NCBI GenBank assembly: GCA_964016885.1 | Contig: CAXHJY010000335.1 | Location: 1-64,000, forward strand | Length of the DNA: 64,000 nucleotides | Reading direction: 5' to 3' | Source of the DNA: Eledone cirrhosa | Lineage: Eukaryota | Translations under genes and position numbers: made by a program | In this document: in pieces, positions 1,945 through 45,750 of the stretch | Layout: each line of letters begins with the position of its first letter | Numbering within the stretch: the first letter of the stretch is position 1 | Notes under the pieces: model-generated | Databases searched by the model: none | The model's input: only the letters and a program-made list of their open reading frames with translations | What the model was told of the DNA's origin: nothing

Positions 1945-3390
1945 CTGAAAATATACATACAATATCATCAACATCATATTCCATATTTTGAGATGGTTTC
2001 TATGGCATGATGCCTTTCCTAACCCCAATTACTTTGCAGGTTGTACTCATCATCATCATCATCTTTTAACGTCTATCTTCCATGCTAGCATGGATTGGTA
2101 TGTTTTATTATGGCATCAGTATTACAACTCTACAGAGTATACCGGGTGTATTTTATCATGGAGACAGCACTATCACGTTGCAGAGTGTATCAGGTGCTTT
2201 TAATCACATCAACACAGTGTAGTGATCATATGATATTGTGGCATTAGCACTAGTGAGATTGTTATGTAACCAATACACCTTGTAATGTAGATTGTGTTAG
2301 GAAGGGGATCCAACTGAAGAAACTATGCCAAAAATAGGGTTGGGAGGACTCTTTAGTCATGTCAAGGGCATGGCAACCTCTCCAATGCTGGTGCCATGAT
2401 AAAATACACTCTGTAATGTGGCTGGTGATACAAAGAGTACCAATCATTAGAGACCATGCCAAAACCGAAACATATGTGAGACATGGTCCCCCAACCAATC
2501 TTGGAGGACAGTAGTTCCAATTAAGTACTGATGCAGTCTGTAATGACCTGTCCAACCCATGCTAGTATGGAAAATCTTTATTCTCATCTATTTACATTCG
2601 TTTTTCCATGCTTTCATAGGTTGGGTAGGTCTTAATCAGCACAAGCTCCCTCCACATTTCTTCATCCAACAATTCATCATCTATACATATCACATGTGGC
2701 GGCACACGGCCTGGTGGTAAGGGTGTTGGACTTATGATTATAATGTTATAGGTTCAATTCCTGGACTAGGTTGTGTGTTGTGTTCTTGAAAAAAACACTT
2801 CATTTCACGTTGCTCCAGTATACTCAGCTGAAAATGAGTATCAGCAATAGCTTGAAGTTTAACCCTGCAATGGCGTCCTGTCCAGTGGGGAGTCATATAC
2901 TCTCGGTCGTTTAATGCCAGAAAAACCAGGATAAGCACCAGCCTGATGAGCCTCGGGGCTTGAGACAGACTTTAGACACATCACATGTCCATATCAGAAA
3001 TTATGACTAGATTTTTTCAACATGCTGACGTGTATGTGTATATGTGTGTACATGTGTACATGTGCACATGCATACATTTAAATGTATGAGTATATAAATA
3101 TAAATGTGCAAACACAGGCGCACTTACAAAAATACACTCAGACATACATTCACACAAACACACACACTCATACATTTACACAAACACACACATACACACA
3201 TCGTAGAAAATGGAACACCAGCTAGTTTTGCTATAGTTTTTTCACCGTCCTCTTTTTTTCCTTTTACACGCACATACATTCACACAAACACACATACATT
3301 GTGTGACAGATGGAAGTCACTGAAATTTATATATAGATGATGATGAAATGTGTGATGGTAAAGTAATTAGCAACAACTAAGAGGTCATAC

Positions 3391-3548
3391 CTGTTTGAAA
3401 TATGTCATCCAGGAAGGTGTGATGTTAGAGACAATGTCATATGGTGTGGTGAGGGCAAGCAGGTGTAGATAATTAGATACAACCAACGTCTCAGTGGCTT
3501 TTTTTAAGTCTTTGTACAATCTGTTGCAGATATCAATGTCAATAGAGC
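3391..3548 (-). CDS. HELQ: HELQ coding exon 14
   Basis: tttcag|(G)SIDIDICNRLYKDLKKATETLVVSNYLHLLALTTPYD..YFKQ|gtatga; 158 nt, phase 1-0. Confidence 0.88.
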
Positions 3549-11853: not shown

Positions 11854-13160
11854 CTGGACAAATATGATATAAAATATGATTCATTTGAAAATACACAAAC
11901 TATTTGATACATAGGATGAGAGACAGACTGTCAGTTAGATAGATGGACAGGTTGATAGGTAGACAGGCTGATAGGTAGACAGGCTGATAGATAGACAGGC
12001 TGTTAGGTAGACAGGCTGATAAGTAGACAGGCTGTTAGGTAGACAGGCTGATAGGTAGACAGGCTGTTAGATAGACAGGCTGTTAGATAGACAGGCTGAT
12101 AGATAGACAGGCTGATAGGTAGACAGGCTGTTAGGTAGACAGGCTGATAGATAGACAGGCTGTTAGGTAGACAGGCTGATAGATAGACAGGCTGTTAGGT
12201 AGACAGGCTGTTAGATAGACAGGCTGATAGATAGACAGGCTGTTAGGTAGACAGGCTGATAGATAGACAGGCTGTTAGGTAGACAGGCTGTTAGGTAGAC
12301 AGGCTGATAGATAGACAGGCTGTTAGGTAGACAGGCTGATAGGTAGACAGGCTGTTAGGTAGACAGGCTGATAGATAGACAGGCTGTTAGGTAGACAGGC
12401 TGATAGGTAGACAGGTTGATAGGTAGACAGGCTGTTAGGTAGACAGGCTGATAGGTAGACAGGTTGATAGGTAGACAGGCTGTTAGGTAGACAGGCTGAT
12501 AGGTAGACAGGCTGATAGGTAGACAGGCTGTTAGGTAGACAGGCTGTTAGGTTGACAGGCTGATAGGTAGACAGGCTGATAGGTAGACAGGCTGATAGGT
12601 AGACAGGTTGATAGGTAGACAGGCTGTTAGGTAGACAGGCTGTTAGGTAGACAGGCTGTTAGGTAGACAGGCTGATAGGTAGACAGGTTGATAGGTAGAC
12701 AGGCTGATAGGTAGACAGGTTGATAGGTAGACAGGCTGTTAGGTAGACAGGCTGTTAGGTAGACAGGCTGTTAGGTAGACAGGCTGATAGGTAGACAGGC
12801 TGTTAGGTAGACAGGCTGATAGGTAGACAGGCTGTTAGGTAGACAGGCTGATAGATAGACAGGCTGTTAGGTAGACAGGTTGTTAGGTAGACAGGCTGAT
12901 AGATAGACAGGCTGTTAGGTAGACAGGTTGTTAGGTAGACAGGCTGATAGGTAGACAGGCTGTTAGGTAGACAGGCTGTTAGGTAGACAGGCTGATAGAT
13001 AGACAGGCTGTTAGGTAGACAGGTTGTTAGGTAGACAGGCTGTTAGGTAGACAGGCTGTTAGGTAGACAGGCTGTTAGGTAGACAGGCTGTTAGGTAGAC
13101 AGGTTGTTAGGTAGACAGGCTGATAGATAGACAGCCTGATAGATAGACAGGCTGATAGAT

Positions 13161-13716
13161 AGATTTCTTTATTAGCCACAAGGGCGCAACAAGAAAGGGG
13201 ACAATACAAAGACATGCCGGGGATTTTACATACAGTCATGTAAAAAATATAAAAACAAACAATTTCAACAATCGAAATCCCCAATAGGGGGGAGGCGCCA
13301 CAAATGGGTTGTTTAATACCCCGTCGATAGAACAACCCTCAACTCCAGGAGCGTGTTGTGCAAGTGCTCCTTTCTTCCTTTTGCTCTCTTCCTCAACCTA
13401 CAGGCTTATAAACAGAGAAGGCCCAATCACTCGGGCCATTTTCGCTTCATTCACCCACCTTTCAGTAAATTTACTGGGGTGCAGTGCCTCTCTCTCCACC
13501 CTGATTCTCCTTCTAAAGTGATACTTAAAGAAGGGAATCAATTGTTGTCCGGAGAGAAAGGCATCTGTCCTCAGTCCTCTCAACCTCGTCCACCATATAA
13601 CTTCTTTCACCATAGCCACCGTACAGAGGAAAACCGCCTCTCTTTCGTTTTTGAAAGAGTCTGGCGGTTTGATCCTTACTATGGACTCGGCAGTCAACTG
13701 TATTTGTCCCATACGC
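13161..13716 (-). mobile_element. Tx1/L1-clade LINE copy 1 (short 3' fragment, divergent subfamily)
   Basis: ORF 13398-13712 homologous to the ORF2 C-terminus of the other copies; 3' end AATAAAGAAAT abutting the minisatellite. Confidence 0.88.
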
Positions 13717-14404
13717 GACAGGCTGTTAGGTAGACAGGCTGATAGATAGACAGGCTGTTAGGTAGACAGGCTGATAGATAGACAGGCTGTTAGGTAGACA
13801 GGCTGTTAGGTAGACAGGCTGTTAGGTAGACAGGCTGTTAGGTAGACAGGCTGTTAGGTAGACAGGCTGTTAGGTAGACAGGCTGTTAGGTAGACAGGCT
13901 GATAGGTAGACAGGCTGTTAGATAGACAGGCTGTTAGGTAGACAGGCTGTTAGGTAGACAGGCTGTTAGGTAGACAGGCTGTTAGGTAGACAGGCTGTTA
14001 GGTAGACAGGCTGTTAGGTAGACAGGCTGTTAGATAGACAGGCTGTTAGGTAGACAGGCTGTTAGGTAGACAGGCTGTTAGGTAGACAGGCTGTTAGGTA
14101 GACAGGCTGTTAGGTAGACAGGCTGTTAGGTAGACAGGCTGTTAGGTAGACAGGCTGATAGATAGACAGGCTGATAGGTAGACAGGCTGATAGATAGACA
14201 GGCTGTTAGGTAGACAGGCTGTTAGGTAGACAGGCTGATAGGTAAACAGGCTGTTAGGTAGACAGGCTGTTAGGTAGACAGGCTGATAGATAGACAGGCT
14301 GTTAGGTAGACAGGCTGATAGGTAGACAGGCTGTTAGGTAGACAGGCTGTTAGGTAGACAGGCTGATAGATAGACAGGCTGTTAGGTAGACAGGCTGATA
14401 GATA

Positions 14405-17377
14405 AGTTTCTTTTATTTGCCACTAGGGCATCAAAAGTGGGACAAGTACAAAGGGGGGAGTTTACACAAAAAGGCGTCCTCAATAAGGAGGAGGCAATAA
14501 CAAAATATAAAAATAAAATAAGATATAACAAAATATAAAATTTTTAACAAAATCCTCAATAGAGAGGAGGCGCCTTGGGGGGTCGCACACACCCCCGAAA
14601 AAAAGTGTGCAACCCTTTTCCTCAGGAGCACAGAGAAGGGGTGCTCCCTCGTTCCTTCCTCTTTTCCACCTACAGGCTTATGTAAAGAGAAGGCCCATTC
14701 ACACGGGCCATTCTCGCCACTTTCACCCATCTTTCATAAAAACGACTGGGGTGCAGCACCTCTCTCTCCATCCTGATCCTTCTTCCGAAATGATATCGGA
14801 AGAAACGGACCAGTTGTTGGCCAGAGAGAAAGGTGCCTGACCTCAGTCCTTTCAGACGCGTCCACCATACAACCTCTTTCGCCATGGCTATTACGCACAG
14901 AAACACCGCCTCTGCTTCATCTTTGAAGGGGGGAGGCGGCTTGATCATTACAATAGACTCGGTGGTCAACCGGATCGGTCCCACCCTTGACAGCAGTTGT
15001 TCGACATAGCCCCACAGATCGGCTACGCCCGAGCAGTGTACCAATGCGTGTGCAACGGTTTCCTCGTCGCACACGCATCTGGGACAGATCTTTTTGGCGG
15101 GGTCCCTACCCGGGCGCCCGTGTCTGTAGAGCCTTTCTCGAACGGGTAAAGCCCCTCGGTAGCACTGCCAGGCCAGGGACTTCTGGAAGTTGTCCATAGG
15201 TCCCGGGCTGAATGTCCTACCGAACAGGCTGGCCAGTTCGTCCTCCTCCATGTCTAGGGCTTCTCCGAGGGCGTCGTCGCACCTGCTGCGTACCAGCCCT
15301 CTATAGAATGTTGCGGTGGAGTCTCCACTGATAACCGGATCCGCCTGCCAGAGGGCGGTGAGCGCCTGGGCACACTCAGTGTGCCAGGCGCCCAGTTTTC
15401 TCGGTCTTTGCTTGACCCAGGATTGCAGCTCGGTGAGTGAGATGAGTCTGGGAAAGGTTCGTCTCACAAACGAGGCCCACACCGGTTGTCCGGTGAGGAA
15501 TACGTAGAGGTGCCGTAGCCTTAATGCGTGTTTACGCATCATTAGCCACGGCATCCCCAGCCCTCCTTTCGAAGGGTGTTGACAGCAGATGGATCTCCTC
15601 ACCATAGGAGCCCGCCTCTTCCAAAGGAATTGGAAGAGCGTGCGCTCCATCTTGGTGAGGGTTTCCCTTGGGCAGGGCACTACGGTCAGGCGGTAGTAGA
15701 TGACGGACGCTATATAAGTGTTCGCCACCTCCGCCCGACCTTTCAGGGATAGTTTGCAACTGGCCCACTTCTGGGTCAGTGCAAACACCCTGTTCGTAAC
15801 CTCCGCCCAGTTTTTCTCCACCTGGAGGTCCGGTCCGAACCAGACCCCGAGCAACTTCACCGGGCCCTCCGTCCAGCGTCCGACGACGCCATCAGAGGGC
15901 ATCGGTCTGCCCCTCCACGTGCCGAGTTGCAAACCGATCGACTTGTCCCGGTTCAGCTTAGCCCCTGTGAACTTTTCGTACTCCTCCAGTAAGGTGCCGA
16001 CCGCCTCGATTTCGGAGGCCGTCAACACCATTACTGTCACATCATCGGCGTAGGCTGACACCGTTTTCCGCAATCCCGGTTCCAAAGGGATGCCCTGCAA
16101 CAACTCCAACTTCCGCAGTAGTGGCTCGAGAGTCAACACATACAGAAGGGAGGAGAGAGGGCACCCTTGTCGGATGGACCGCGCGATTTTGAACGGCTCC
16201 GAGAGGTAGCCATTCACCTTGACCCTAGAGCAGATGCGGCTGCTGTGCATAGCAGTGATCCAGCCCCTGAAAACGGGTCCGAAGCCTGCCGCCGCTAGCA
16301 CCGCATCCAGGTAACCATGGTCGACCCTATCGAACGCCTTAGATTGATCCAAGTTGATCAGAGCCCCACCAAAGCCGGGTTCGTTCCCAACCCTCTCTAT
16401 GATGTATCGCATGAGGTGGAGGTTGTCATGGATGGACCTGGACGGGATAGCGCATGTCTGCGCATCTCCCACCAGGTTGCCCACGACAAGCGCCAACCTC
16501 TTTGCTAGCACCTTGGCCAAAATCTGTAACTCTGTATTTAGCAGAGTTATGGGCCTGAAGTTACTTATTTCGTCCCCCTTGTTCTCGTCCTTCCTCACTA
16601 GCGTGACTACGCCCTTGGTCACAGTACAGGGAATTCTCCCGTTCTGTTGCCAGTTGCAGTAGACCGCCTCGAGGAGATCGGGGAACAAGTCCGGCATAGC
16701 TAGATATAATTCGTAAGGAAGACCATCGAGACCCGGGGATTTGCGTTTGCTGCATTGGCCCAGCACGTCCTCTATCTCAGCGGCCGAAATCGGCTCCTCG
16801 CAAGACTTCGCCTCCCTGTCCGAGAGGCGCGGCAGGCCGTCGAGGTATGGACCGAAGTCCACGTTTCCAACCGGCTCCCCGCCCCTCCCGAACAGTCGGG
16901 CAAAGTGCCTTTGAAAGGCCTCACACATCTGCTTAGGCTCAAGAATCGCCCGTCCATCCAGGTCTCGCAAAGACCGGATGGTGGATTTAGTTCCACTGTT
17001 GGCCTCTGTCACGCGGGCCCAGCTAACAGCTTTGGCCCCCTCGTTCCCTAGAGCACGTATTTTACTTCGGACAACGCAGCCTTCGTGCTTCGCGTCGAAA
17101 AACTGGCTCAAAGCCGTTCTCGACGCTAGCACTCTGGCCACGTCGCCGCTTCTAATTGCCTCTTCTACTCTATCTATTAGCTCCCTTTCCTTCCTATTCC
17201 TATCCGCAGCTAGAACCTTACTAAATTCAATCGAGACTACTCTAATCTCTCTCTTTAGAGATACCCACCACCTGCTGTTGACGATCGCTCCAGTCAACCG
17301 TTCCTTAACTAACGTACTAATCCGATTCCTGTAGGCTCTACTTGCCGGCAAGGACAAGTTGAGCTTCCAGTAACCGG
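14405..17377 (-). mobile_element. Tx1/L1-clade LINE copy 2 (5'-truncated, open RT ORF 14670-17357)
   Basis: RT motifs KSPGLDG, DQSKAFDRV, RQGCPLS, YADD; CCHC knuckle; GATAGATA on both sides. Confidence 0.93.
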
Positions 17378-17608
17378 ATAGATAGACAGGCTGTTAGGTA
17401 GACAGGCTGTTAGGTAGACAGGCTGTTAGGTAGACAGGCTGATAGGTAGACAGGCTGATAGATAGACAGGCTGATAGATAGACAGGCTGTTAGGTAGACA
17501 GGCTGATAGGTAGACAGGCTGTTAGGTAGACAGGCTGATAGGTAGACAGGCTGATAGGTAGACAGGCTGTTAGGTAGACAGGCTGTTAGGTAGACAGGCT
17601 GATAGATA

Positions 17609-20600
17609 TATTTCTTTTATTTGCCACTAGGGCATCAAAAGTGGGACAAGTACAAAGGGGGGAGTTTACATAACAAGGGGTCCTCAATAAGGAGGAGGCA
17701 ATAACAAAATATAAAAATAAAATAAGATATAACAAAAAATAAAATTTTTAACAAAATCCTCAATAGAGAGGAGGCGCCTTGGGGGGTCGCACACACCCCC
17801 GAAAAAAGTGTGCAACCCTACTCCTCAGGAGCACAGAGAAGGGGTGCTCCCTTGGTCTTTCATCTTCCTCACCTATAGTCTGATGTAGAGTGAAGGCCCA
17901 TTCACACGGGCCATTCTCGCCACTTTCACCCATCTTTCATAAAAACGGCTGGGGTGCAGCACCTCTCTCTCCATCCTGATCCTTCTTCCGAAATGATATC
18001 GGAAGAAACGGACCAGTTGTTGGCCAGAGAGAAAGGTGCCCGACCTCAGTCCTTTCAGACGCGTCCACCATACAACCTCTTTCGCCATGGCTATTACGCA
18101 CAGAAACACCGCCTCTGCTTCATCTTTGAAGGGGGGAGGCGGCTTGATCATTACAATAGACTCGGTGGTCAACCGGATCGGTCCCACCCTTGACAGCAGT
18201 TGTTCGACATAGCCCCACAGATCGGCTACGCCCGAGCAGTGTACCAATGCGTGTGCAACGGTTTCCTCGTCGCACACGCATCTGGGACAGATCTTTTTGG
18301 CGGGGTCCCTACCCGGGCGCCCGTGTCTGTAGAGCCTTTCTCGAACGGGTAAAGCCCCTCGGTAGCACTGCCAGGCCAGGGACTTCTGGAAGTTGTCCAT
18401 AGGTCCCGGGCTGAATGTCCTACCGAACAGGCTGGCCAGTTCGTCCTCCTCCATGTCTAGGGCTTCTCCGAGGGCGTCGTCGCACCTGCTGCGTACCAGC
18501 CCTCTATAGAATGTTGCGGTGGAGTCTCCACTGATAACCGGATCCGCCTGCCAGAGGGCGGTGAGCGCCTGGGCACACTCAGTGTGCCAGGCGCCCAGTT
18601 TTCTCGGTCTTTGCTTGACCCAGGATTGCAGCTCGGTGAGTGAGACGAGTCTGGGAAAGGTTCGTCTCACAAACGAGGCCCACACCGGTTGTCCGGTGAA
18701 GAATACGTAGAGGTGCCGTAGCCTTAATGCGTGTTTACGCATCATTAGCCACGGCATCCCCAGCCCTCCTTTCGAAGGGTGTTGACAGCAGATGGATCTC
18801 CTCACCATAGGAGCCCGCCTCTTCCAAAGGAATTGGAAGAGCGCGCGCTCCATCTTGGTGAGGGTTTCCCTTGGGCAGGGCACTACGGTCAGGCGGTAGT
18901 AGATGACGGACGCTATGTAGGTGTTCGCCACCTCCGCCCGACCTTTCAGGGATAGTTTGCAACTGGCCCACTTCTGGGTCAGTGCAAACACCCTGTTCGT
19001 AACCTCCGCCCAGTTTTTCTCCACCTGGAGGTCCGGTCCGAACCAGACCCCGAGCAACTTCACCGGGCCCTCCGTCCAGCGTCCGACGACGCCATCGGAG
19101 GGCATCGGTCTGCCCCTCCACGTGCCGAGTTGCAAACCGATCGACTTGTCCCGGTTCAGCTTAGCCCCTGTGAACTTTTCGTACTCCTCCAGTAAGGTGC
19201 CGACCGCCTCGATTTCGGAGGCCGTCGACACCATTATTGTCACGTCATCGGCGTAGGCCGACACCGCTTTCCGCAATCCCGGTTCCAAAGGGATGCCCTG
19301 CAACAACTCCAACTTCCGCAGTAGTGGCTCGAGAGTCAACACATACAGAAGGGAGGAGAGAGGGCACCCTTGTCGGATGGACCGCGCGATTTTGGACGGC
19401 TCCGAGAGGTAGCCGTTCACCTTGACCCTAGAGCAGATGCGGCTGCTGTGCATAGCAGTGATCCAGCCCCTGAAAACGGGTCCGAAGCCTGCCGCCGCTA
19501 GCACCGCATCCAGGTAACCATGGTCGACCCTATCGAACGCCTTAGATTGATCCAAGTTGATCAGAGCCCCACCAAAGCCGGGTTCGTTCCCAACCCTCTC
19601 TATGATGTATCGCATGAGGTGGAGGTTGTCATGGATGGACCTGGACGGGATAGCGCATGTCTGCGCATCTCCCACCAGGTTGCCCACGACAAGCGCCAAC
19701 CTCTTTGCTAGCACCTTGGCCAAAATCTGTAACTCTGTATTTAGCAGTGTTATGGGCCTGAAGTTACTTATTTCGTCCCCCTTGTTCTCGTCCTTCCTCA
19801 CTAGCGTGACTACGCCCTTGGTCACAGTACAGGGAATTCTCCCGTTCTGTTGCCAGTTGCAGTAGACCGCCTCGAGGAGATCGGGGAACAAGTCCGGCAT
19901 AGCTAGATATAATTCGTAAGGAAGACCATCGAGACCCGGGGATTTGCGTTTGCCGCATTGGCTCAGCACGTCCTCTATCTCAGCGGCCGAAATCGGCTCC
20001 TCGCAGGACTTCGCCTCCCTGTCCGAGAGGCGCGGCAGGCCGTCGAGGTATGGACCGAAGTCCACGTTCTTAACCGGCTCCCCGCCCCTCCCGAACAGTC
20101 GGGCAAAGTGCCTTTGAAAGGCCTCACACATCTGCTTAGGCTCAAGAATCGCCCGTCCATCCAGGTCTCGCAAAGACCGGATGGTGGATTTAGTTCCACT
20201 GTTGGCCTCTGTCACGCGGGCCCAGCTAACAGCTTTGGTCCCCTCGTTCCCTAGAGCACGTATTTTACTTCGGACAACGCAGCCTTCGTGCTTCGCGTCG
20301 AAAAACTGGCTCAAAGCCGTTCTCGACGCTAGCACTCTGGCCACGTCGCCGCTTCTAATTGCCTCTTCTACTCTATCTATTAGCTCCCTTTCCTTCCTAT
20401 TCCTATCCGCAGCTAGAACCTTACTAAATTCTATCGAGACTACTCTAATCTCTCTCTTTAGAGATACCCACCACCTGCTGTTGACGATCGCTCCAGTCAA
20501 CCGTTCCTTAACTAACGTACTAATCCGATTCCTGTAGGCTCTACTTGCCGGCAAGGACAAGTTGAGCTTCCAGTAACCGGGGCCCTGTCTATGAGTTCTG

Positions 20601-21505
20601 TCAAGGTTGACCATGCAGGTCACTAATTTGTGGTCTGAATAGCCAACAATGCGCATTTTTGGACAACTTAAAAAGTCCTTATCCTTAATTCTAACTAAGA
20701 ACCTATCTAGGTACGACCTAGATGATCCGCTACGATTTGCCCAAGTCCAGGTTGGCGCAGTCGGAAAATCTAGTCGATATCTATCGGCCAGGTCAAATCG
20801 ACCGATTAACCCTTTGAGGCTATTACACCCCTCTCTATCGGGGCAGGCCCCTACGTAGTCCCAGCGTGCATCTAGGATACCATTCCAGTCCCCCACTAAT
20901 AGCAAGGAGCGGGACGTCCCTAGAAAAGTCTCCAGACGATGGAAGAAGTCCGGCCGCATTGACCCGAAAGGGCCGTAGGCGGCTACCAACCTAAACGCTC
21001 CGCCTTTACCACTGCCAAGGTCCAGAACCACTAGTCGACCCTCCGGGTCCAAATGTACCATCTGTGTTGCGAGACCCAGATGTTTTTGCAGCAGAACGAC
21101 AACTCCACCCCCACCTCCGGGCTGACAGAGAGATGCGTGCATCTCAAAGTCATCAAAGGTGGGGGCCAGCTGTCGCACGTTGCTGATCTGGGCCTCGCAA
21201 ATAACCATCACATCTATACGTTGTGACCTGAGGTCATTTAGAAGCATTGCTTGCTTCCAAGTTGAGCCCAGGCCACGCGCATTTAAACAGCCTACTCTTA
21301 GCATAGCCATGTTGGTGGTGAAGAGAAAAGGCACTTACCTCTCTGCGTCCCGGGTATCGGGCTGCACAATTTCCATTAGGGTGGGGGATGGGTTGTTGGG
21401 TGGGGTGGTGGTTTGTGGAAGTGTGGGGGCATCAGTGTGTTGTGTGGTTGGGGAGCTTGGAGTTGTGTGGGTGTTTGGGGAGGGGGTGGGATAGTTTTTT
21501 AGGAG
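17609..21505 (-). mobile_element. Tx1/L1-clade LINE copy 3 (complete ORF2 plus ORF1 tail)
   Basis: Uninterrupted ORF2; Pro/Thr-rich ORF1 end ..QPDTRDAER*; AGGCTGATAGATA on both sides. Confidence 0.95.
17873..21310 (-). CDS. Tx1-like ORF2: APE endonuclease, reverse transcriptase, CCHC knuckle
   Basis: RVGCLNARGL, GDWN, SYLDRF, SDH (APE); YADD (RT); CPRC..ETVAHALVHC. First ATG at 21310; frame is open from 21334. Confidence 0.93.
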   Translation of the reverse strand: MAMLRVGCLNARGLGSTWKQAMLLNDLRSQRIDVMVICEAQISNVRQLAPTFDDFEMHASLCQPGGGGGVVVLLQKHLGLATQMVHLDPEGRLVVLDLGSGKGGAFRLVAAYGPFGSMRPDFFHRLETFLGTSRSLLLVGDWNGILDARWDYVGACPDREGCNSLKGLIGRFDLADRYRLDFPTAPTWTWANRSGSSRSYLDRFLVRIKDKDFLSCPKMRIVGYSDHKLVTCMVNLDRTHRQGPGYWKLNLSLPASRAYRNRISTLVKERLTGAIVNSRWWVSLKREIRVVSIEFSKVLAADRNRKERELIDRVEEAIRSGDVARVLASRTALSQFFDAKHEGCVVRSKIRALGNEGTKAVSWARVTEANSGTKSTIRSLRDLDGRAILEPKQMCEAFQRHFARLFGRGGEPVKNVDFGPYLDGLPRLSDREAKSCEEPISAAEIEDVLSQCGKRKSPGLDGLPYELYLAMPDLFPDLLEAVYCNWQQNGRIPCTVTKGVVTLVRKDENKGDEISNFRPITLLNTELQILAKVLAKRLALVVGNLVGDAQTCAIPSRSIHDNLHLMRYIIERVGNEPGFGGALINLDQSKAFDRVDHGYLDAVLAAAGFGPVFRGWITAMHSSRICSRVKVNGYLSEPSKIARSIRQGCPLSSLLYVLTLEPLLRKLELLQGIPLEPGLRKAVSAYADDVTIMVSTASEIEAVGTLLEEYEKFTGAKLNRDKSIGLQLGTWRGRPMPSDGVVGRWTEGPVKLLGVWFGPDLQVEKNWAEVTNRVFALTQKWASCKLSLKGRAEVANTYIASVIYYRLTVVPCPRETLTKMERALFQFLWKRRAPMVRRSICCQHPSKGGLGMPWLMMRKHALRLRHLYVFFTGQPVWASFVRRTFPRLVSLTELQSWVKQRPRKLGAWHTECAQALTALWQADPVISGDSTATFYRGLVRSRCDDALGEALDMEEDELASLFGRTFSPGPMDNFQKSLAWQCYRGALPVRERLYRHGRPGRDPAKKICPRCVCDEETVAHALVHCSGVADLWGYVEQLLSRVGPIRLTTESIVMIKPPPPFKDEAEAVFLCVIAMAKEVVWWTRLKGLRSGTFLSGQQLVRFFRYHFGRRIRMEREVLHPSRFYERWVKVARMARVNGPSLYIRL

Positions 21506-22318
21506 AGGCTGATAGATAGACAGGCTGATAGATAGACAGGCTGTTAGGTAGACAGGCTGTTAGGTAGACAGGCTGATAGGTAGACAGGCTGATAGGTAGA
21601 CAGGCTGATAGGTAGACAGGCTGATAGGTAGACAGGCTGATAGATAGACAGGCTGTTAGGTAGACAGGTTGTTAGGTAGACAGGCTGATAGGTAGACAGG
21701 CTGTTAGGTAGACAGGCTGTTAGGTAGACAGGCTGTTAGGTAGACAGGCTGATAGATAGACAGGCTGTTAGGTAGACAGGTTGTTAGGTAGACAGGCTGA
21801 TAGGTAGACAGGCTGTTAGATAGACAGGCTGATAGGTAGACAGGCTGTTAGGTAGACAGGCTGTTAGGTAGACAGGCTGTTAGGTAGACAGGTTGTTAGG
21901 TAGACAGGCTGATAGATAGACAGGCTGTTAGGTAGACAGGCTGTTAGGTAGACAGGCTGTTAGGTAGACAGGCTGTTAGGTAGACAGGCTGTTAGGTAGA
22001 CAGGCTGTTAGGTAGACAGGCTGATAGGTAGACAGGCTGATAGATAGACAGCCTGTTAGGTAGACAGGCTGATAGATAGACAGGCTGTTAGGTAGACAGG
22101 CTGTTAGGTAGACAGGCTGTTAGGTAGACAGGCTGTTAGGTAGACAGGCTGATAGGTAGACAGGCTGTTAGGTCGACAGGCTGTTAGGTAGACAGGCTGT
22201 TAGGTAGACAGGCTGTTAGGTAGACAGGCTGTTAGGTAGACAGGCTGTTAGGTAGACAGGCTGTTAGGTAGACAGGCTGTTAGGTAGACAGGCTGATAGG
22301 TAGACAGGCTGATAGATA

Positions 22319-25300
22319 ATTTTCTTTTTATTTGCCACTAGGGCATCAAAAGTGGGACAAGTACAAAGGGGGGAGTTTACATAACAAGGGGTCCTCAATA
22401 TGGAGGAGGCAATAACAAAATATAAAAATAAAATAAAATATAACAAGATAAAATTTATAACAAAATCCTCAATAGAGAGGAAGCGCCTTGGGGGGTCGCA
22501 CACACTCCCGAAAAAAAGTGTGCAACCCTTCTCCTCAGGAGCACAGAGAAGGGGTGCTCCCTTGGTCTTTCATCTTCCTCACCTATAGTCTGATGTAGAG
22601 TGAAGGCCCATTCACACTGGCCATTCTCGCCACTTTCACCCATCTTTCATAAAAACGGCTGGGGTGCAGCACCTCTCTCTCCATCCTGATCTTTCTTCCA
22701 AAATGATATCGGAAGAAACGGACCAGTTGTTGGCCAGAGAGGAAGGTGTCTGACCTCAGTCCTTTCAGAAGCGTCCACCATACAACCTCTTTCGCCATGG
22801 CTATTACGCACAGAAACACCGCCTTTCCTTCGTTTTTGAAGAGGGGAGGCGGCTTGATCGTTACAATAGACTCGGTGGTCAACTGGATCGGTCCCACCCT
22901 TGACAGCAGTTGTTCGACATAGCCCCACAGATCGGCAATGCCCGAGCAGTGTACCAATGCGTGTGCAATGGTTTCCTCGTCGCACACGCATCTGGGACAG
23001 ATCTTTTTCGAGGGGTCCCTACCTGGGCGCCCGTGTCTGTAGAGCTTTTCTCGAACGGGCAGAGCCCTTCTGTAGCACTGCCAGGCCAGGGACCTCTGGA
23101 AGTTATCCATGGGTCCCGGGCTGAATGTCCTACCGAACAGGTTGGCCAGTTCATCTTCCTCCATGCCTAGGGCTTCTCCGAGGGCGTCGTCGCACCTGCT
23201 AACTACCAGCCCTCTATAGAATGACGAGGTGGATTCTCCACTAACAGCCGGGTCCGCCTGCCAGAGAGCAGTGAGCGCCTGGGCACACTCAGTGTGCCAG
23301 GCGCCCAGTTTTCTCGGTCTTTGCGTGACCCAGGATTGCAGCTCGGTGAGTGAGACGAGTCTGGGAAAGGCTCGCCTCACAAACGGGGCCCACACCGGTT
23401 GACCGGAGAGGAATACCTGGAGGTACCGTAGCCTTAATGCGTGTTTACGTATCATTAGCCACGGCATCCCCAGCCCTCCTTTCGAAGGGTGTTGACAGCA
23501 GATGGATCTCCTCACCATAGGAGCCCGCTTCTTCCAAAGGAATTGGAAGAGTGCGCGCTCCATTTTGGCGAGCGTTTCCCTTGGGCAAAGCACAACGGTC
23601 AGGCGGTAGTAGATGACGGGCGCTATATAAGTGTTTTCCACCTCCGCCCGACCTTTCAGGGACAGTTTGCACTCGGCCCACTTCTGGGTCAGTGCAAACA
23701 CCCTGTTCGTTACCTCACCTCAGTTCTTCTCCACCTGGAGGTCTGGTCCGAACCAGACTCCGAGCAACTTCACCGGGCCCTCCGTCCAGCGCCCGACGAC
23801 GCCATCGGAGGGCATCGATCTGCCCCTCCACGTGCCGAGTTGCAGACCGATCGACTTGTCCTGGTTCAGCTTAGCCCCTGTAAACCTTTTGTACTCCTCC
23901 AGTAAGGTGCCGATGCTCCCGATTTCCGAGGCCGTCGACACCATTAGTGTTACGTCATTGGCGTAGGCCGACACCGCTTTCCGCAATCTCGGTTCCAACA
24001 GGATGCCCTGCAACAACTCCAACTTCCGCAGCAGTGGCTCTAGAGTCATTACATACAGAAGGGAGGAGAGAGGGCACCCCTGTTGGATGGACCGCGCGAT
24101 TTCGAACGGCTCCGAGAGGTAGCCGTTGTCCTTGACCCTAGAGCAGATGCGGCTGCTGTGCATGGCATTGATCCAGCCCCTGAAAACGGGTCCGAAGCCT
24201 GCCGCCGTTAGCACCGCATCCAGGTAACCATGGTCGACCCTATCGAACGCCTTAGATTGATCCAAGTTGATCAGGGCCCCACCAAAGCCGGGTTTGTTCC
24301 CAACCCTCTCTATGATGTATCGCATGAGGTGGAGGTTGTCGTGGATGGACCTGGACGGGATAGCACATGTGTGCGCATCTCCCACCAGGTTGCCCATGAC
24401 AAGCACCAACCTCTTTGCTAGCACCTTGGCCAAAATCTGTAACTCTGTATTTAGCAGAGTTATGGGCCTGAAATTATTTATATCGTCCCTCTTGTTCTCG
24501 TCCTTCCTCACTAGCGTGACTACGCCCTTGGTCACAGCACAGGGAATTCTCCCGTTCTGTTGCCATTTGCAGTAGACCGCCTTGAGGAGATCGGGGAACA
24601 AGTCCGGCATAGCTAGATATAGTTCGTATGGAAGACCATCGAGACCCGGGGATTTGCGTTTGCCGCATTGGCTCAGCACATCCTCTATCTCCGCGGCTGA
24701 AATTGGCTCCTCGCAGGACTTCGCCTCCCTGTCCGAGAGACGCGGCAGGCCGTCGAGGTATGGACCGAAGTCCACATCCCCAACCGGCTCCCCGCCCTTT
24801 CCGAACAATCGGGCAAAGTGCTTTTGAAAGGCCTCACACATCTGCTTAGGTTCAAGGATCGCCCGTCCATCCTGGTCTCGCAAAGATGGTGGATTTAGTT
24901 CCACTCTTGGCTCTGTCACGCGGGCCCAGCTAAGAGCTTTGGTCCCCTCGTTTCCCAGAGCACGTATTTTGCTTCGGATGATGCAGCCTTCGTGTTTCGT
25001 GTCGAAGAACTGGCCCAGGGCCGTTCTCGACGCTAGCACTCTGGCCACGTCGCCGCTTCTAATTGCCTCTTCTACACTATCTACCAACTCCCTTTCCTTC
25101 TCATTTCTAGTTGAGGCTAACTCCTTACTAAATTCTATAGAGACTACTCTAATCTCTCTTTTGAGAGATCCCCACCACCTGCTGTTGACGATGGCGCCCG
25201 TCAACCGCTCCTTAACTAAAGTGCTAATCCGGTCCCTGTAAGCCTTACTTGCCGGTAAGGACAAGTTGAGCTTCCAGTAACCGGGTCCCCGTCTATGTGT

Positions 25301-26201
25301 TCTGTCAAGGTTGACCATGCAGGTCACTAACTTGTGGTCTGAATAGCCAACCATGCGCATTTTTGGACAACTTAAAAAGTCCTTATCCTTAATTCTAACT
25401 AAGAACCTATCTAGGTACGACCTAGATGATCCGCTACGATTTGCCCAAGTCCAGGTTGGCACAGTCGGAAAATCTAGTCGATATCTATCGGCCAGGTCAA
25501 ATCGATCGATTAACCCTTTGAGGCTATTACACCCCTCTCTATCGGGACAGGCCCCTACGTAGTCCCAGCGTGCATCTAGGATACCATTCCAGTCCCCCAC
25601 TAATAGCAAGGAGCGGGACGTCCCTAGAAAAGTCTCCAGACGATGGAAGAAGTCCGGCCGCTTTGACCCGAAAGGGCCGTAGACGGCTACCAACCTAAAC
25701 GCTCCGCCTTCACCACTGCCAAGGTCCAGAACCACTAGTTGACCCTCCGGGTCCAAATGTACCATCTGTGTTGCGAGACCCAGATGTTTTTGCAGCAGAA
25801 CGACAACCTCACCCCCACCTCCGGGCTGACAGAGAGATGCGTGCATCTCAAAGTCATCAAAGGTGGGGGCCAGCTGTCGCATGTTGTTGATCCGGGCCTT
25901 GCAAATAACCATCACATCTATACATTGTGACCTGAGGTCATTTAGAAGCATTGCTTGCTTCCAAGTTGAGCCCAGGCCACGTGCATTTAAACAGCCTACT
26001 CTTAGCATTGCCATGTTGGTGGTGAAGAGAAAAGGCACTTACCTCTCTGCGTCCTGGGTATCGGGCTGCACAATTTCCATGAGGGTGGGAGATGGGTTGT
26101 TGGGTGGGGATGACTTGGGTGGGGGTGCCTGTGGTGGGGAGGCCTTTGTAGAGGACGCGGTTGATTGGTTTCACGCAGGAATTCCCCACGTCCTCTACAA
26201 A
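22319..26201 (-). mobile_element. Tx1/L1-clade LINE copy 4 (decayed)
   Basis: Same ORF2 but with a stop at ~23720, YADD changed to YAND, and a compensated frameshift near 24890. Confidence 0.92.
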
Positions 26202-40135: not shown

Positions 40136-40573
40136 ACATATGCATAAGGGATAAAGATTCCATAACTCCTTGTGGAGTCATAGCGGCATTCTCAAACAGG
40201 GTATGTAAGGCACTTTTAAACCTGGCGAAGCCCAACTCTCTCCAGGTCTGAACACAGCCGATTTTTTTCTATAGAGGAAGAATCAACCCCAGTACTGGAC
40301 AGGCACTTTTTTTTTATCGACCTCGAAAGCATGAAAGCCATTGACCATGGCGGGATTTGAACTCAGAGCACGCAATGAGGTGGGACGAATACCATAAAGC
40401 ATTTTATCTGATATCTTAACTAGTCTGCCATTTTGCTGCCTAGTAAGCATAAAATATACAAGGTATGATGTTGATGATAATCACATGAGAACTAAAATGG
40501 TCAGGTGAAAATGTTTGAGAAGTTAGAAAGTATAACAAAGTGAATAACAATGATGTTTTGGGTCAAAACTTGC

Positions 40574-40752
40574 CTTTTCTTGTACAATTGAAACAAATGG
40601 TAGAATTAAAATGGCATTTTTCTTCTGGCAAAGTAGCTGACGGAGAATGATGATTTCAGCAACAAGAGTCTTGCCACCACTTGTAGGTAGAGAGTAAATC
40701 AAATTCTTATTGGATGTTAGTGCAGCCAATGATAAACACTCTTCTTGCCAAT
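40574..40752 (-). CDS. HELQ: HELQ coding exon 4 (Q motif, Walker A)
   Basis: (D)[33 protein letters not shown]|gcaagt; SLPTSGGKT matches HELQ rather than POLQ (SAPTSAGKT). Confidence 0.95.
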
Positions 40753-41263
40753 CTAGAATGAGAACATGAAGAAACTGTTACCATATTTCTAATGAAAGAT
40801 ATTGCCTATGATTTTTAAACTCTTTTGAAAATTATCAAGAATTAGGAAGGGTTTAGTAACAAAACTAACTTTTTCATTATTAAGCTGGTGTTTGGAACAT
40901 AAATTAACAAAGGTTCTTACAAAGAATTTTTTTAATCATAAAACCAGAGGTGGTTCCAAGTGTTTTGATATTAAAAATGTTAATGAAAGTTTATGCATTA
41001 TACATTTGATAGGAACATACATATCAACTAATTGCTCAATAGTGAAACAGACACATACATGCAATCATATACATGTGCACACACATACATTATAAAGAGT
41101 CTGGACCCGACTGCTGAGCTCTTGCCATTTCAACAGCTAGTTCCAGCTCAGCCGTCAGTTCCCGACTCTTCATTATATAGCTATACTCTACTATGCAAAG
41201 TATTGAGTACTCTGTTGAGTAATGGTCTAACTAGTTTCAAACGGGTTCTAAACCTGATTTTTA

Positions 41264-42027
41264 CGAGGGCAATCCCAAAAGTAAGTTCTCTAAAGTGATG
41301 GGGAGGCAGAGAAACTGTTTGTACGGCTGTTGGCAACACTGTTGTGATTAGTGCTTCCTTCACTCCCAAACAAGCATGCGCGCGCTTTGCTGGGATGCTC
41401 AATCTTGGCTTGGCAGCCGTTGAGAATGGAGCTCCCGTTGGACGCTACCGCCAAGTGCGAAGTTCGCGCAGTTATTCGGTTTTTGAACGCAAAAAGCGTT
41501 GAACCGATTGAAATTCATCGCCAATTGACGGAAGTGTATGGACAGTCGTGCATGGATGTCAAAAACATTCGCAAGTGGTGTAGAGAGTTTACAGCCGGTA
41601 ATACTGAAATTCACGATGAACAAAGGAGTGAGAGACCGTCAATTTCTGACGAGACAGTTGCAAAGGTTGAGGAAAACTTGCGTAAAGATCAACGGATCAC
41701 TCTGGATGCTCTCTACATTTTGGTTCCTGAAGTTTCCCGAAGCACCATCCACAGGATTTTAACGGAAAAATTGCGACTGTCTCGTCAGAAATTGATGGTC
41801 TCCCACTCCTTTGTTCATTGTGAATTTCAGTACGACTGGTTGTAAACTCTCTATACCAATTACGAACGTTTTTGACATCCATGCACAACTGTCCATACAC
41901 TTCCGTCATTTGGCAATGAATTTCATAGTGAAGGAAGCACCAATCACAACAGTGTTGCCAACAGCTGTACGAACAGTTTCTCTGCGTCCCCATTGCTTTG
42001 GAGACCTTACTTTTGGGATTGCCCTCA
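41264..42027. mobile_element. Fold-back mariner derivative made of two inverted 5' ends
   Basis: TIR CGAGGGCAATCCCAAAAGTAAG with TA flanks; N-terminal HTH transposase segment, followed by an inverted copy of the same 5' part. Confidence 0.85.
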
Positions 42028-42094
42028 TATATATATACATACATGTATGTGTCTTTCTCTCCCTCTCTAAATATGATGATGATGATAATGATGA

Positions 42095-42158
<64 letters not shown>

Positions 42159-42252
42159 TAACGAAGGAAATGTGGTAAGGAACCAGGTGGACCATAACGC
42201 ACCAAAGTACTCAATACTTGAGGTAGTAAAGTGGGTAATAGGAACCAGTAAG

Positions 42253-42346
42253 ACCCCGACAGCTGAGCTCCAGCCGTTTCGACGGCTAATTCTGGACTAA
42301 ATGAAAATTTATCCTGGTATTTAAATAGCCGATCTTCTCAAGGGGT
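42253..42346 (-). ncRNA. Type I hammerhead ribozyme (U3/A8 core variant), sense to HELQ pre-mRNA
   Basis: Exact reverse complement of the 44540-44633 motif; predicted cut between 42258 and 42257. Confidence 0.8.
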
Positions 42347-44539
42347 AATTCCATATATGGTCAAAGTGATTGTCAAAAATCAGTAGTAATTCTGTGGTTG
42401 CAAATTAGTAGGGGAGATGGTGGCTAAACCTGCCAGTAGGAGAAAGAGGGGAGGGGGTGGAGTAGACCCAATCAAGCGTTGGTAGTGCCAGCTACAGCTG
42501 GGCATGAGGTCAAAGAAGATACAGGGGAGGGGGAGGGGGAGGAAGTCGGAACGGTAGGTAGAACAATGGGGGGTAGAAATAAAGGAAAGAAAAAATACTG
42601 AGAGTGAAGAAAAGCAAATAAGTGTAAAGAAAAAAGTAAAGTAAATTAAATTCTACGACCTAGGTGTCAGGCTATTGTTAGGCGAGAATAAAATAAAGAA
42701 AGAAAGAAAGAAGTAAAGAAAAAAATAAATAAAGAAATAACGAAATAAGTAAAAGAACTAGGTGGGACGGAATAGGCAAGGACCCTTTTAAGAGGTATAA
42801 GTACGTAAATGATACGGTGACGGGTCAACAAAAGGGGCCAAAATACTAAAGAGACTACCACGAAATAAACAATAAAGGTTCCCATCCCGGGCCAGCAACG
42901 ACCCAGTGCAGCAAAGTGAACTTGTACAAGATAATAATTCTGAGTCCCGAGAAAAATATATACTAATGCTAACTCTAAAAGATCTAAAACAAGCTACAAG
43001 AAAGTTCGTACGAAAAAAAGGTAGAATACGGAGAAATAAATTCAGAATCCACCCCGCCCAGAAGAAAAGCGAAGCAAGAAATACTGAAACGAAAGATAAG
43101 GCATAAGTGCCACTAAGAAATATAGAGGGCACAGAGAATAGTGGGAGCGGTTGGAAAAAGGGGGCAAGTATCCGGGGTCTAAGCCAACTGCTATAAAGGG
43201 CGGAGTCCGCCAAATCTATCATAGACTAGGGGAGGGGGTGGTGGGGGTACTAAGGCTACATGGGGCCAAAGGGCAGCCTCGGGTGGGCGAGAAAAGACGC
43301 CGACAAAGGAGAAGAGCTGGGGTAGAAGGACTAAGGAGAGAGGGGGGGGGGAAGGAAATAAAGGAAGCGATAAAAGAATACAAAGAAGATCTTACGTCTT
43401 CCTTGGCAAGCAGGGGTTACCCATTGCAAAATCGGCAAGTGGGGTGTTATAGCCCTAGTCTACCCCCCCGGGTCATTATGGGGTTTGAGGGCGAGGTAAG
43501 TCCTACGCAATCTATGTTTACATGCAGTAACCAGTTCATCTTTCTTGTTTAGGAGTTGGTCCGTCGGAAACAGCATTTGTAAAGTTTCCTCCGAGCATAA
43601 ATTGCACGGACGGCGTCCTCCCATGTAAGAATTGGCTCTGAACAGTAATCTCCAAGTGAGATCATAGGTGATGTTGTTGTCCTTGAGGTCCCATATGTGG
43701 CCCGAAAGTGTAGTGGCGTGACGCCGGGCCGGGTTTCGGAAGGTATGTCTATGTTGGTATAGCCGGGTCTTGAAGTCACATGCGGTAAGTCTTGAAGGCG
43801 TGACGCCGGGCCGGGTTTCGGAAGGTATGTCTATGTTGGTATAGCCGGGTCTTGAAGTCACATGCGGTAAGTTCGTACAAACTTTCTTGTAGCTTGTTTT
43901 AGATCTTTTAGAGTTAGCATTAGTATATATTTTTCTCGGGACTCAGAATTATTATCTTGTACAAGTTCACTTTGCTGCACTGGGTCGTTGCTGGCCCGGG
44001 ATGGGAACCTTTATTGTTTATTTCGTGGTAGTCTCTTTAGTATTTTGGCCCCTTTTGTTGACCCGTCACCGTATCATTTACGTACTTATACCTCTTAAAA
44101 GGGTCCTTGCCTATTCCGTCCCACCTAGTTCTTTTACTTATTTCGTTATTTCTTTATTTATTTTTTTCTTTACTTCTTTCTTTCTTTCTTTATTTTATTC
44201 TAGCCTAACAATAGCCTGAGACCTAGGTCGTAGAATTTAATTTACTTTACTTTTTTCTTTACACTTATTTGCTTTTCTTCACTCTCAGTATTTTTTCTTT
44301 CCTTTATTTCTACCCCCCATTGTTCTACCTACCGTTCCGACTTCCTCCCCCTCCCCCTCCCCTGTATCTTCTTTGACCTCATGCCCAGCTGTAGCTGGCA
44401 CTACCAACGCTTGATTGGGTCTACTCCACCCCCTCCCCTCTTTCTCCTACTGGCAGGTTTAGCCACCATCTCCCCTACTAATTTGCAACCACAGAATTAC
44501 TACTGATTTTTGACAATCACTTTGACCATATATGGAATT

Positions 44540-44633
44540 ACCCCTTGAGAAGATCGGCTATTTAAATACCAGGATAAATTTTCATTTAGTCCAGAATTAG
44601 CCGTCGAAACGGCTGGAGCTCAGCTGTCGGGGT
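44540..44633 (+). ncRNA. Type I hammerhead ribozyme (U3/A8 core variant)
   Basis: Stem I ACCCC/GGGGT; core TTGAGAA; stem II GA(T)CGGCTA..TAGCCGTC; GAAA; stem III ACGGCTG/CAGCTGT; GTC cleavage triplet at 44626-44628. Confidence 0.8.
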
Positions 44634-44866
44634 CTTACTGGTTCATATATACATATATATATATATATTCATGTAAAGAAAAACAAATGTACGAAAGAGA
44701 GAGAGAGCACAACTCTGAAAATTTCTGTTGCAGAAAGAAAAATGTTTGGAGGGAAAGAATCTCCATGCATCATTAGTAGGGAGACTGGGTTAATATTTGT
44801 GGAGTTTTTATTCACACACCATAATATTGCGAGGATTGGGGTTAATAGTATTGGGTCTTAACTTAC

Positions 44867-45182
44867 CATAGAGTTTTTTTATGCCTCTCTGTTTCTCGAA
44901 GAGTTCTTTGACTTTGGAAGGGAGGCCATAAAATGGTCCTATATCAAAGTTATTATAGCCTGCATCTTTCTCTTTCTGCACAATTTCAAGGTCAGCTTTT
45001 GCTTCTGCCAGCTTATCCTGCTGTATTTTCTCAATATGTTTACCAATGTTCTGTGAAATGTGTCCTTGAGCATTTTGAAACAGGCACTTATGTATGCGTT
45101 TCTTTAAGAAAGATGTGTTTGTAGTCTTTGCCTTTGAAGGTTTCAAATCTGTTTTGTCTTCTTTACAGAAAACAGTTTCTTC
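44867..45182 (-). CDS. HELQ: HELQ coding exon 3
   Basis: tttag|EETVFC..IGPFYGLPSKVKELFEKQRGIKKLY|gtaagt; 316 nt, phase 0-1. Confidence 0.92.
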
Positions 45183-45750
45183 CTAAACAATTTGAAAATG
45201 AAACAATATAAATTTTAATAAAAACAAAAAGAAAAGCAACTTGATCATCAGATTGGATCATAGAAACTATGTTTCTATTGCTGATACTATCTGCGTGGAA
45301 AGCTCACCCACTTGCACATTAATTCATAAGTAGACTGTTCTATTGATAAAAAACTAGAACACGCATTGTGAAAACCGATGGAGATCCATTCCACTCCATC
45401 TTGCTTATAATACGTACATCTAAGGGTTTGAATACAACATAATGGATATATAAGAGAGGAGTCGATCGACTTTCGTCAAATCGGACCAAGGAAACAATGT
45501 TTCTGTTGGTCTTCCTAATTGCTAATACTATCTATCGGTCGCAACTTCAGGTAGAAGGAGCAACGTGAAATAAAGTGTCTGGCTCAAGGACATAACGCAT
45601 CGCCCGGTCTGGGAATCGAACTGACAACCTCATGACCGCGGATCCAGTTATCTAACCAATTAGCCACATGCCTTCACTGGATATATGAAAGTCACAATAA
45701 TTTTACATCATATCATGTAATACACACATTTCATAGAAAAATTCCCTTAC

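What the first reader, a model, noticed from the sequence alone, without database searches (positions are those of the whole stretch)
42242..44644. Penelope-like palindrome placing a hammerhead ribozyme on each strand of a HELQ intron
The two 773-bp arms differ at only about three positions that I could see. Each holds a fully paired type I hammerhead with the compensated U3-A8 core, a long loop II and a GUC site. The left copy is in the HELQ pre-mRNA and is transcribed after its antisense arm, so ribozyme folding competes with a long duplex that could silence it and attract ADAR. Hammerheads and inverted pLTRs in Penelope elements are known; the effect on the host transcript is inference.
Basis: partly seen in the sequence, partly recalled or inferred. 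Interest (0 to 1): 0.7.

Follow-up and report, generated by a model that had tools for sequence, protein, structure and literature searches.

The report
Penelope palindrome, promoter inside its ribozyme
This is one young, mirror-image insertion of a very abundant Penelope-type jumping gene in an intron of the HELQ gene; its predicted self-cutting RNA is likely smothered by the matching opposite arm, and thousands of tiny sister copies break off inside that RNA, often beside an extra G, which likely marks where the element's own transcript starts.

Summary
Observation confirmed: two 773-bp arms with 3 differences, a type I U3-A8 hammerhead in each, in a HELQ intron. It is a 5'-truncated, head-to-head insertion of a young Hydra-type Penelope-like element (3,531-bp unit; over 21,000 copy ends here). 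One arm carries an 82-nt tail, the other does not, as in 92 of 97 small and 26 of 28 long two-armed copies. The better story is family-wide: at least 15,251 copies are ~200-bp palindromes whose arms stop inside hammerhead loop II, at an initiator-like A 41 nt before the cut site and 29 nt after a TATA-like box, with an untemplated G (1,080 against 181 A). This likely marks a capped transcription start that splits the first ribozyme; only 1 of 60 sampled arms ends at the cut site. The scan noted this cap footprint before, on other genomes and probably on this family; my paper searches did not find it in print.

The parts
44867..45184 (-). HELQ exon upstream of the intron
   Evidence: contig of run X4, record positions 1331-1648; open frame continues into next exon
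40573..40752 (-). HELQ exon downstream (helicase motif I)
   Evidence: X4 contig 1649-1828; 85-90% to cephalopod helicase POLQ-like
40753..44866 (-). HELQ intron (GT-AG, 4,114 nt) holding the insertion, 222 nt from the donor
42242..43014 (-). left arm: 3' untranslated part of the element with hammerhead, sense to HELQ
42160..42241 (-). 82-nt tail present on this end only (ends 98 nt after the cut site)
   Evidence: 21,662 such ends in the genome
42241..42352 (-). left type I hammerhead, predicted cut between 42258 and 42257
   Evidence: fold; activity untested
43015..43871 (-). spacer: rest of the longer copy, with the C-terminal GIY-YIG endonuclease fragment (43463-43795)
   Evidence: 97% protein identity to copies in 784-codon open frames; maps to unit 2013-3531
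43715..43872 (.). 76-bp segment present twice (43715-43790, 43797-43872) at the head-to-head junction
43872..44644 (+). right arm: shorter inverted copy, ends 16 nt after the cut site, no tail
44534..44644 (+). right type I hammerhead, predicted cut between 44628 and 44629
44559..44566 (+). TATA-like box inside the hammerhead's stem II/loop II (mirror at 42320-42327, minus)
   Evidence: sequence; similar AT-rich word in four subfamilies; function inferred
44588..44588 (+). inferred transcription start (A at -41 from the cut; mirror at 42298, minus); on this arm it would fire antisense to HELQ
   Evidence: arm ends and untemplated G in sister copies
42146..42159 (+). candidate 14-bp target duplication in (TA)n, repeated at 44645-44658 with the same interrupting C
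   Evidence: length uncertain in a microsatellite

Best explanation
This is a young head-to-head insertion of a Hydra-type Penelope-like retrotransposon, likely made in one event when both nicked target strands primed reverse transcription at two fixed sites on the element's RNA, and its hammerheads are passengers that are predicted to be masked by the opposite arm in any read-through transcript. Shown: anatomy, family, one-tail rule, shared private variants of the arms, pile-up of sister-copy ends inside loop II with an untemplated G. Inferred: (1) the endonuclease cuts (TA)n; the two 3' ends prime 98 and about 17 nt after the ribozyme cut site; the two cDNAs are joined at their far ends by end-joining; (2) the element's RNA starts, capped, at the A 41 nt before the cut site, so its first hammerhead lacks its 5' half and cannot cut, and priming near this front end runs off after 139 and about 58 nt to give the ~200-bp stubs; (3) long copies such as this one come from priming behind a downstream hammerhead on uncut read-through or circular RNA; (4) in HELQ pre-mRNA the antisense arm is made first and zips up the ribozyme as it emerges, so the intron is spliced largely intact, though the duplex is a plausible ADAR substrate.
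For: Family: 3,531-bp unit, 717-aa RT plus endonuclease frame, arrays; RWR, DKT, CxCx5C, CxxC and CxH motifs and (TA)n targets match the Hydra definition. One tail only: 92 of 97 small palindromes, 26 of 28 long ones. Arms share variants absent or rare elsewhere (0 of 88, 1 of 79, 2 of 88, 3 of 87 other aligned copies); arm-to-arm mismatches in most long copies are far fewer than to the reference unit. Ends: 29 of 60 tailed arms taken in genome order end at -34 to -46, 23 further downstream, 8 upstream, 1 at the cut site. 15,251 centres with 0-30 nt between the -31 anchors against 2,118 whole hammerheads by pattern. G before A(-41): 1,080; A: 181; at -40, G 320 and C 401; none of the 100 whole ribozymes listed has G there. 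18 of 77 arms reaching -41 carry more T than the template has; 4 of 35 continue the template past the T run. Two internal priming sites explaining the tail, and cleavage being dispensable, were shown in vitro for an Anolis PLE (Frangieh 2024). Masking.
Against: No RNA 5' end, cleavage or editing was measured. The loop II hairpin is also kept by compensating changes across subfamilies and its 3' strand spans the same -37 to -45 stretch, so structure may contribute; ends at -35 and -37 are as common as -41 (duplicates not removed). The G controls are imperfect: C at -42 was not counted, and C at -40 includes blunt joins. The X4 sample may not carry the insertion. The centre junction was not bridged by contigs of X1-X3 or reads of X14. 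The arms differ at two linked family polymorphisms, whereas both arms agree in 10 of 10 other scorable copies, so a patch came from elsewhere or from polishing. Equilibrium folding ignores proteins and kinetics. Small-palindrome samples come mainly from one contig, and part was anchored on the tail.
Confidence: 0.7

Rival explanations
1. Same insertion, but sister copies stop in loop II because reverse transcriptase stalls, or cDNA folds back and is clipped, at the loop II hairpin; no promoter lies there.
For: Hairpin conserved by compensation in subfamilies A, C, D; ends cover its 3' strand and stop at its apex.
Against: G excess specific to -41 and untemplated T runs point to a physical template end; stronger stems I, III and II are read through; initiator-like and TATA-like words at the usual spacing.
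Confidence: 0.15
2. One reading: the left ribozyme folds often enough to cut HELQ pre-mRNA, or the duplex is edited or alters splicing, so the insertion tunes HELQ output.
For: Stable monomer fold with 6-7-bp stem III; U3-A8 is an active variant (Perreault 2011, passages); fast intronic ribozymes lower splicing (Fong 2009 as cited in PMC10919898); the arm lies 222 nt from the splice donor; an unchecked scan note reports edited Penelope hairpins in this genome.
Against: 111 of 112 bases paired to the antisense arm; PLE hammerheads are often weak or protein-dependent; spliced contig exists; the copy is very young and one of many, so selection for a role is unlikely.
Confidence: 0.1
3. Head-to-head forms arise by self-priming on an antisense template (Arkhipova 2013) or by later inversion or gene conversion, not by two-ended priming.
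For: Proposed for Adineta elements (passages); some centres are perfect palindromes.
Against: Outer ends sit at two fixed sites with one tail per insertion; many centres are asymmetric with filler, microhomology or blunt joins (62, 25, 23 of 110 rows, duplicates included); extra G can stand on both arms.
Confidence: 0.1
4. The palindrome is an assembly artefact such as a fold-back read.
For: Unplaced contig; junction not bridged in short-read contigs.
Against: Unique flanks with collinear HELQ exons, family-typical unequal ends, target duplication candidate, thousands of like structures; no second copy of the flank in the assembly.
Confidence: 0.04

Closest known systems
Hydra clade of endonuclease-bearing Penelope-like elements (Craig et al. 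2021, PMC8557442; section 11 whole and passages read)
   Same: C-terminal GIY-YIG, DKT, CxCx5C linker, CxxC and CxH motifs, (TA)n targets, canonical hammerhead; inverted 5'-truncated partner and tail at one end are described for PLEs generally
   Different: 3.5-kb unit (most reported <3 kb), 82-nt tail (30-40 bp reported), tens of thousands of copies, mostly 200-bp stubs; start site inside the ribozyme not mentioned in what I read
Poseidon element of Anolis, PAc (Frangieh et al. 2024, PMC11167929; parts 1-2 of 4 read)
   Same: AT-rich targets, both strands cut and extended, two internal priming sites bounding the tail, cleavage not needed
   Different: other clade; the paper does not tie one site to each strand or explain inverted pairs; no cap footprint in the parts read
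Penelope of Drosophila virilis and Adineta vaga (PMC2377424, PMC3846280; passages)
   Same: promoter in the pLTR; TATA plus initiator-like words in Adineta; head-to-head arrangement most frequent
   Different: D. virilis promoter is TATA-less and internal; Adineta paper proposes antisense self-priming
PLE hammerheads (Cervera and de la Pena 2014, PMC4209133; passages) and U3-A8 variants (Perreault 2011, PMC3088659; passages)
   Same: type I, G10.1-C11.1, palindromic loop III, location at the unit boundary; circles proposed as templates of tandems
   Different: full stem III able to fold as monomer, long structured loop II, U3-A8 core
Intronic ribozymes: amniote HH9/RECK, CPEB3 (PMC6155905, PMC10919898; passages)
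   Same: ribozyme sense in an intron
   Different: those are conserved and domesticated; this one is very young and paired with its own antisense

Membership tests
EN+ Penelope-like element | single frame with RT and C-terminal GIY-YIG endonuclease | tested here: met
   717-aa frame with RT motifs and YIG motif in the unit; 2,049 relatives at E<=1e-20, top hit with PF01541; Pfam scan of the protein itself gave nothing; window holds only the last ~110 codons
EN+ Penelope-like element | tandem/partial tandem and inverted 5'-truncated copies, tail at one end | tested here: met
EN+ Penelope-like element | hammerhead in the pLTR | tested here: met
   (fold only)
Hydra clade | RWK and DKT motifs | tested here: met
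   RWR (conservative change) and DKT read from the protein
Hydra clade | CxCx5C linker; no CCHH; CxxC and CxH beside the conserved E and N | tested here: met
   read
Hydra clade | insertion into (TA)n | tested here: met
Hydra clade | placement in an RT phylogeny | not tested
Type I hammerhead | three stems, conserved core, NUH site, 3-8 pair | tested here: met
   U3-A8 in subfamilies A, C, D with N7 varying G/U/A; C3 with A8 mismatch in 3 loci of subfamily B; Rfam models do not score it
Type I hammerhead | self-cleavage; stem I-loop II tertiary contact | not testable with these tools
   needs in vitro assay
Non-LTR retrozyme | small non-coding tandem monomer with whole hammerhead | tested here: not met
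   unit is 3.5 kb and coding; stubs hold half a ribozyme
Domesticated intronic ribozyme | orthologous conservation | tested here: inconclusive
   arms 99.6% alike and 98.5% to nearest copies argue for youth; no relative's genome held

The most novel reading that the evidence does not exclude
A Penelope-like element places its promoter inside its own hammerhead: transcription starts in loop II, so only the downstream ribozyme of a tandem can cut; cut RNA keeps only the front pair of priming sites and yields over 15,000 capped-end stubs, while uncut or circularised RNA yields long and multi-unit copies; each insertion is written from both DNA ends, one per priming site, which makes most long copies self-muzzling in host transcripts.
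Probability: 0.45. Interest if true: 0.68.

Novelty: new variant of a known kind. Interest (0 to 1): 0.45.

Why it matters
The locus itself is an ordinary young insertion. The family gives large-number footprints for two open PLE questions named in the papers read: how inverted pLTRs and the one-sided tail arise, and what the hammerhead is for. It names exact, testable positions (start at -41, priming at +17 and +98, no pile-up at the cut site). It also implies about a thousand long perfect RNA duplexes and 15,000 short ones newly added to a cephalopod genome, a group known (recalled) for heavy A-to-I editing.

Tried and rejected
Rfam: no hammerhead hit. Pfam: nothing for the endonuclease fragment or whole protein. 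No RNA holder listed; no raw RNA reads, so start sites, 5'-OH ends and editing could not be read. Change spectrum in X4 contigs (A>G 33, T>C 22, C>T 28, G>A 30) is dominated by other copies and says nothing on editing. Runs X5 and X6 (other organisms) left most of the element body without cover: not used as evidence. Centre junction not bridged in X1-X3, X14: a hole, not evidence of absence. No second haplotype or empty site in the assembly. POLQ as host gene: best solved-structure hit but rejected. Cleaved RNA as main template: 1 of 60 arms ends at the cut site. Retrozyme: rejected, coding unit. The long-copy part failed through a pattern error and was redone. Paper searches found no report of a cap-derived G or a start site inside a PLE hammerhead; the library lacks most subscription papers, and supplements of Craig 2021 and Frangieh 2024 were not seen. 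The extra-G cap signature of L1 is recalled, not found. Scan look-up by sequence gave nothing.

Full report
Observation. The inverted repeat is real: arms 42242-43014 and 43872-44644, 773 bp, three differences, 857 bp apart. Each ends in a type I hammerhead that is the best fold of the isolated sequence, with the U3-A8 pair, GAAA and a GUC site; Rfam does not recognise it. U3-A8 is a natural, active variant (Perreault 2011, passages). The host gene is HELQ on the minus strand (solved structures offered only POLQ), and a contig of run X4 joins the two flanking exons exactly, so the intron is 40753-44866 and the left ribozyme is sense, made after its antisense arm.

What it is. The spacer holds the end of an endonuclease gene; the best 150 scored matches in the genome are 97-100% identical, many in 784-codon open frames. 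A fetched array gave a 3,531-bp unit, four units differing at 0-1 bases, with a 717-aa frame from the first ATG, 190 nt after the ribozyme cut site. Its motifs match the Hydra clade of Penelope-like elements (Craig 2021, section 11); no tree was built. The window copy is two 5'-truncated pieces joined head to head in (TA)n: a longer one ending 98 nt after the cut site and a shorter one ending 16 nt after it, with a 76-bp duplication at the joint and a candidate 14-bp target duplication. Both arms share variants rare or absent among 88 other aligned copies, so they were likely copied from one source.

It is the family's normal form. Exact patterns count 21,662 tailed ends and 16,329 short ends, some counted twice, but about 2,100 whole ribozymes of this subfamily. 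One long plus one short end was found in 92 of 97 distinct small palindromes (2 long/long, 1 short/short, 2 intermediate; part of the sample was anchored on the tail) and in 26 of 28 long two-armed copies chosen for being two-armed (1 intermediate, 1 unresolved). Inverted partners and a one-sided 30-40-bp tail are described for PLEs (Craig 2021; Arkhipova 2013), and Frangieh 2024 (parts 1-2 of 4) showed in vitro that both strands are cut and extended, that two internal priming sites bound the tail, and that ribozyme cleavage is not needed. I infer that each nicked strand takes one site.

Where copies stop. Of the first 60 tailed ends on contig 1, 29 arms stop 34-46 nt before the cut site, 10 between there and the cut, 13 inside the tail, 8 further upstream; one lies at the cut site. 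Genome-wide, 15,251 centres have at most 30 nt between the two -31 anchors; the 1,909 with 31-60 nt are mostly the same arms plus filler. The boundary falls on an A at -41 in a T(T/C)AGT word, 29 nt after a TATA-like box in this subfamily, both inside loop II and recognisable in four subfamilies. A G stands before this A 1,080 times and an A 181 times, though none of 100 whole ribozymes listed has G there; one base downstream there is no G excess (320 G, 401 C). Of 77 arms reaching -41, 18 carry longer T runs than the template allows. An extra G from copying a cap is known for L1 (recalled; not found). These marks indicate a physical, likely capped, RNA end. Against it: the loop II hairpin is also conserved by compensation and covers the same bases, ends at -35 and -37 are as frequent, and the controls are confounded by blunt joins.

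How it likely works. RNA starting at -41 lacks the 5' half of its first hammerhead; only the next one in a tandem can cut, and cutting removes the downstream priming sites. Priming near the front end gives ~200-bp palindromic stubs; long copies such as this one need uncut read-through or circular RNA (circles were proposed by Cervera and de la Pena 2014, passages; seamless near-identical arrays fit but do not prove it).

Effect on HELQ. In the fold of the 2,511-nt HELQ-sense stretch, 111 of 112 ribozyme bases pair with the mirror arm; the local duplex is -219.8 against -30.0 kcal/mol. By symmetry the same holds for antisense read-through. Slow intronic ribozymes do not disturb splicing (Fong 2009 as cited in PMC10919898). 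A spliced contig exists, but its sample may lack the insertion. Editing is plausible and unshown. If the promoter is real, an outward transcript from 44588, antisense to the exon 279 nt away, is at least as likely a route to a host effect as the ribozyme (inference).

Novelty. The locus is an ordinary member of a known class. The start site inside the ribozyme and the cap footprint were not found in my paper searches. I reached them; later look-ups showed that the scan had noted the cap footprint in several other genomes and a similar break-point story in this one. Those notes are unchecked and are not support. Li et al. 2026 (part 1 of 5), Schostak 2008 and de la Pena 2017 were seen as stated under Closest known systems or as passages. 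Supplements were not read and may bear on tail length and Hydra hammerheads.

Noticed in passing
L035:9174-10000 and L036:1-2742 (G000:C1, near 91.49 Mb): At the centre of a two-armed insertion a 55-bp piece of the coding region is repeated head to tail (58 exact copies counted). It may be repeated re-copying by a telomerase-related enzyme, or later minisatellite growth; the window's 76-bp duplication is a two-copy version.
   Followed up: partly
L031-L033 and L034-L036: Seamless arrays of 4 whole units: 0-1 differences in one; in the other, units 1/3 and 2/4 are more alike than neighbours, as from a dimeric template.
   Followed up: partly
L057, L096, L099: Subfamily with C3 facing A8, a core mismatch predicted to weaken cleavage, yet mobilised.
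   Followed up: no
window 44202 and 44220: Two of the three arm differences are linked alleles of another sub-lineage (16 of 61 copies), while arms agree in 10 of 10 other scorable copies: conversion patch, template switch or polishing error.
   Followed up: partly
window 41088-41260: Older, decayed ~170-bp palindromic stub of the same clan in the same intron.
   Followed up: partly
window 41262-42029: Mariner-type remnant with inverted ends and a Mos1-type HTH match.
   Followed up: no
window 11900-26100: Several tandem LINE copies (endonuclease-RT frames up to 1,153 aa) separated by short-period repeats.
   Followed up: no
many loci, e.g. L033, L059, L069, L093, L104: Numerous unrelated small type I hammerheads with short palindromic stem III turn up in random flanks.
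   Followed up: no
unit 1-190 (L031:6267-6456): The reading frame is open from inside stem III of the ribozyme, 67 codons before the first ATG.
   Followed up: no
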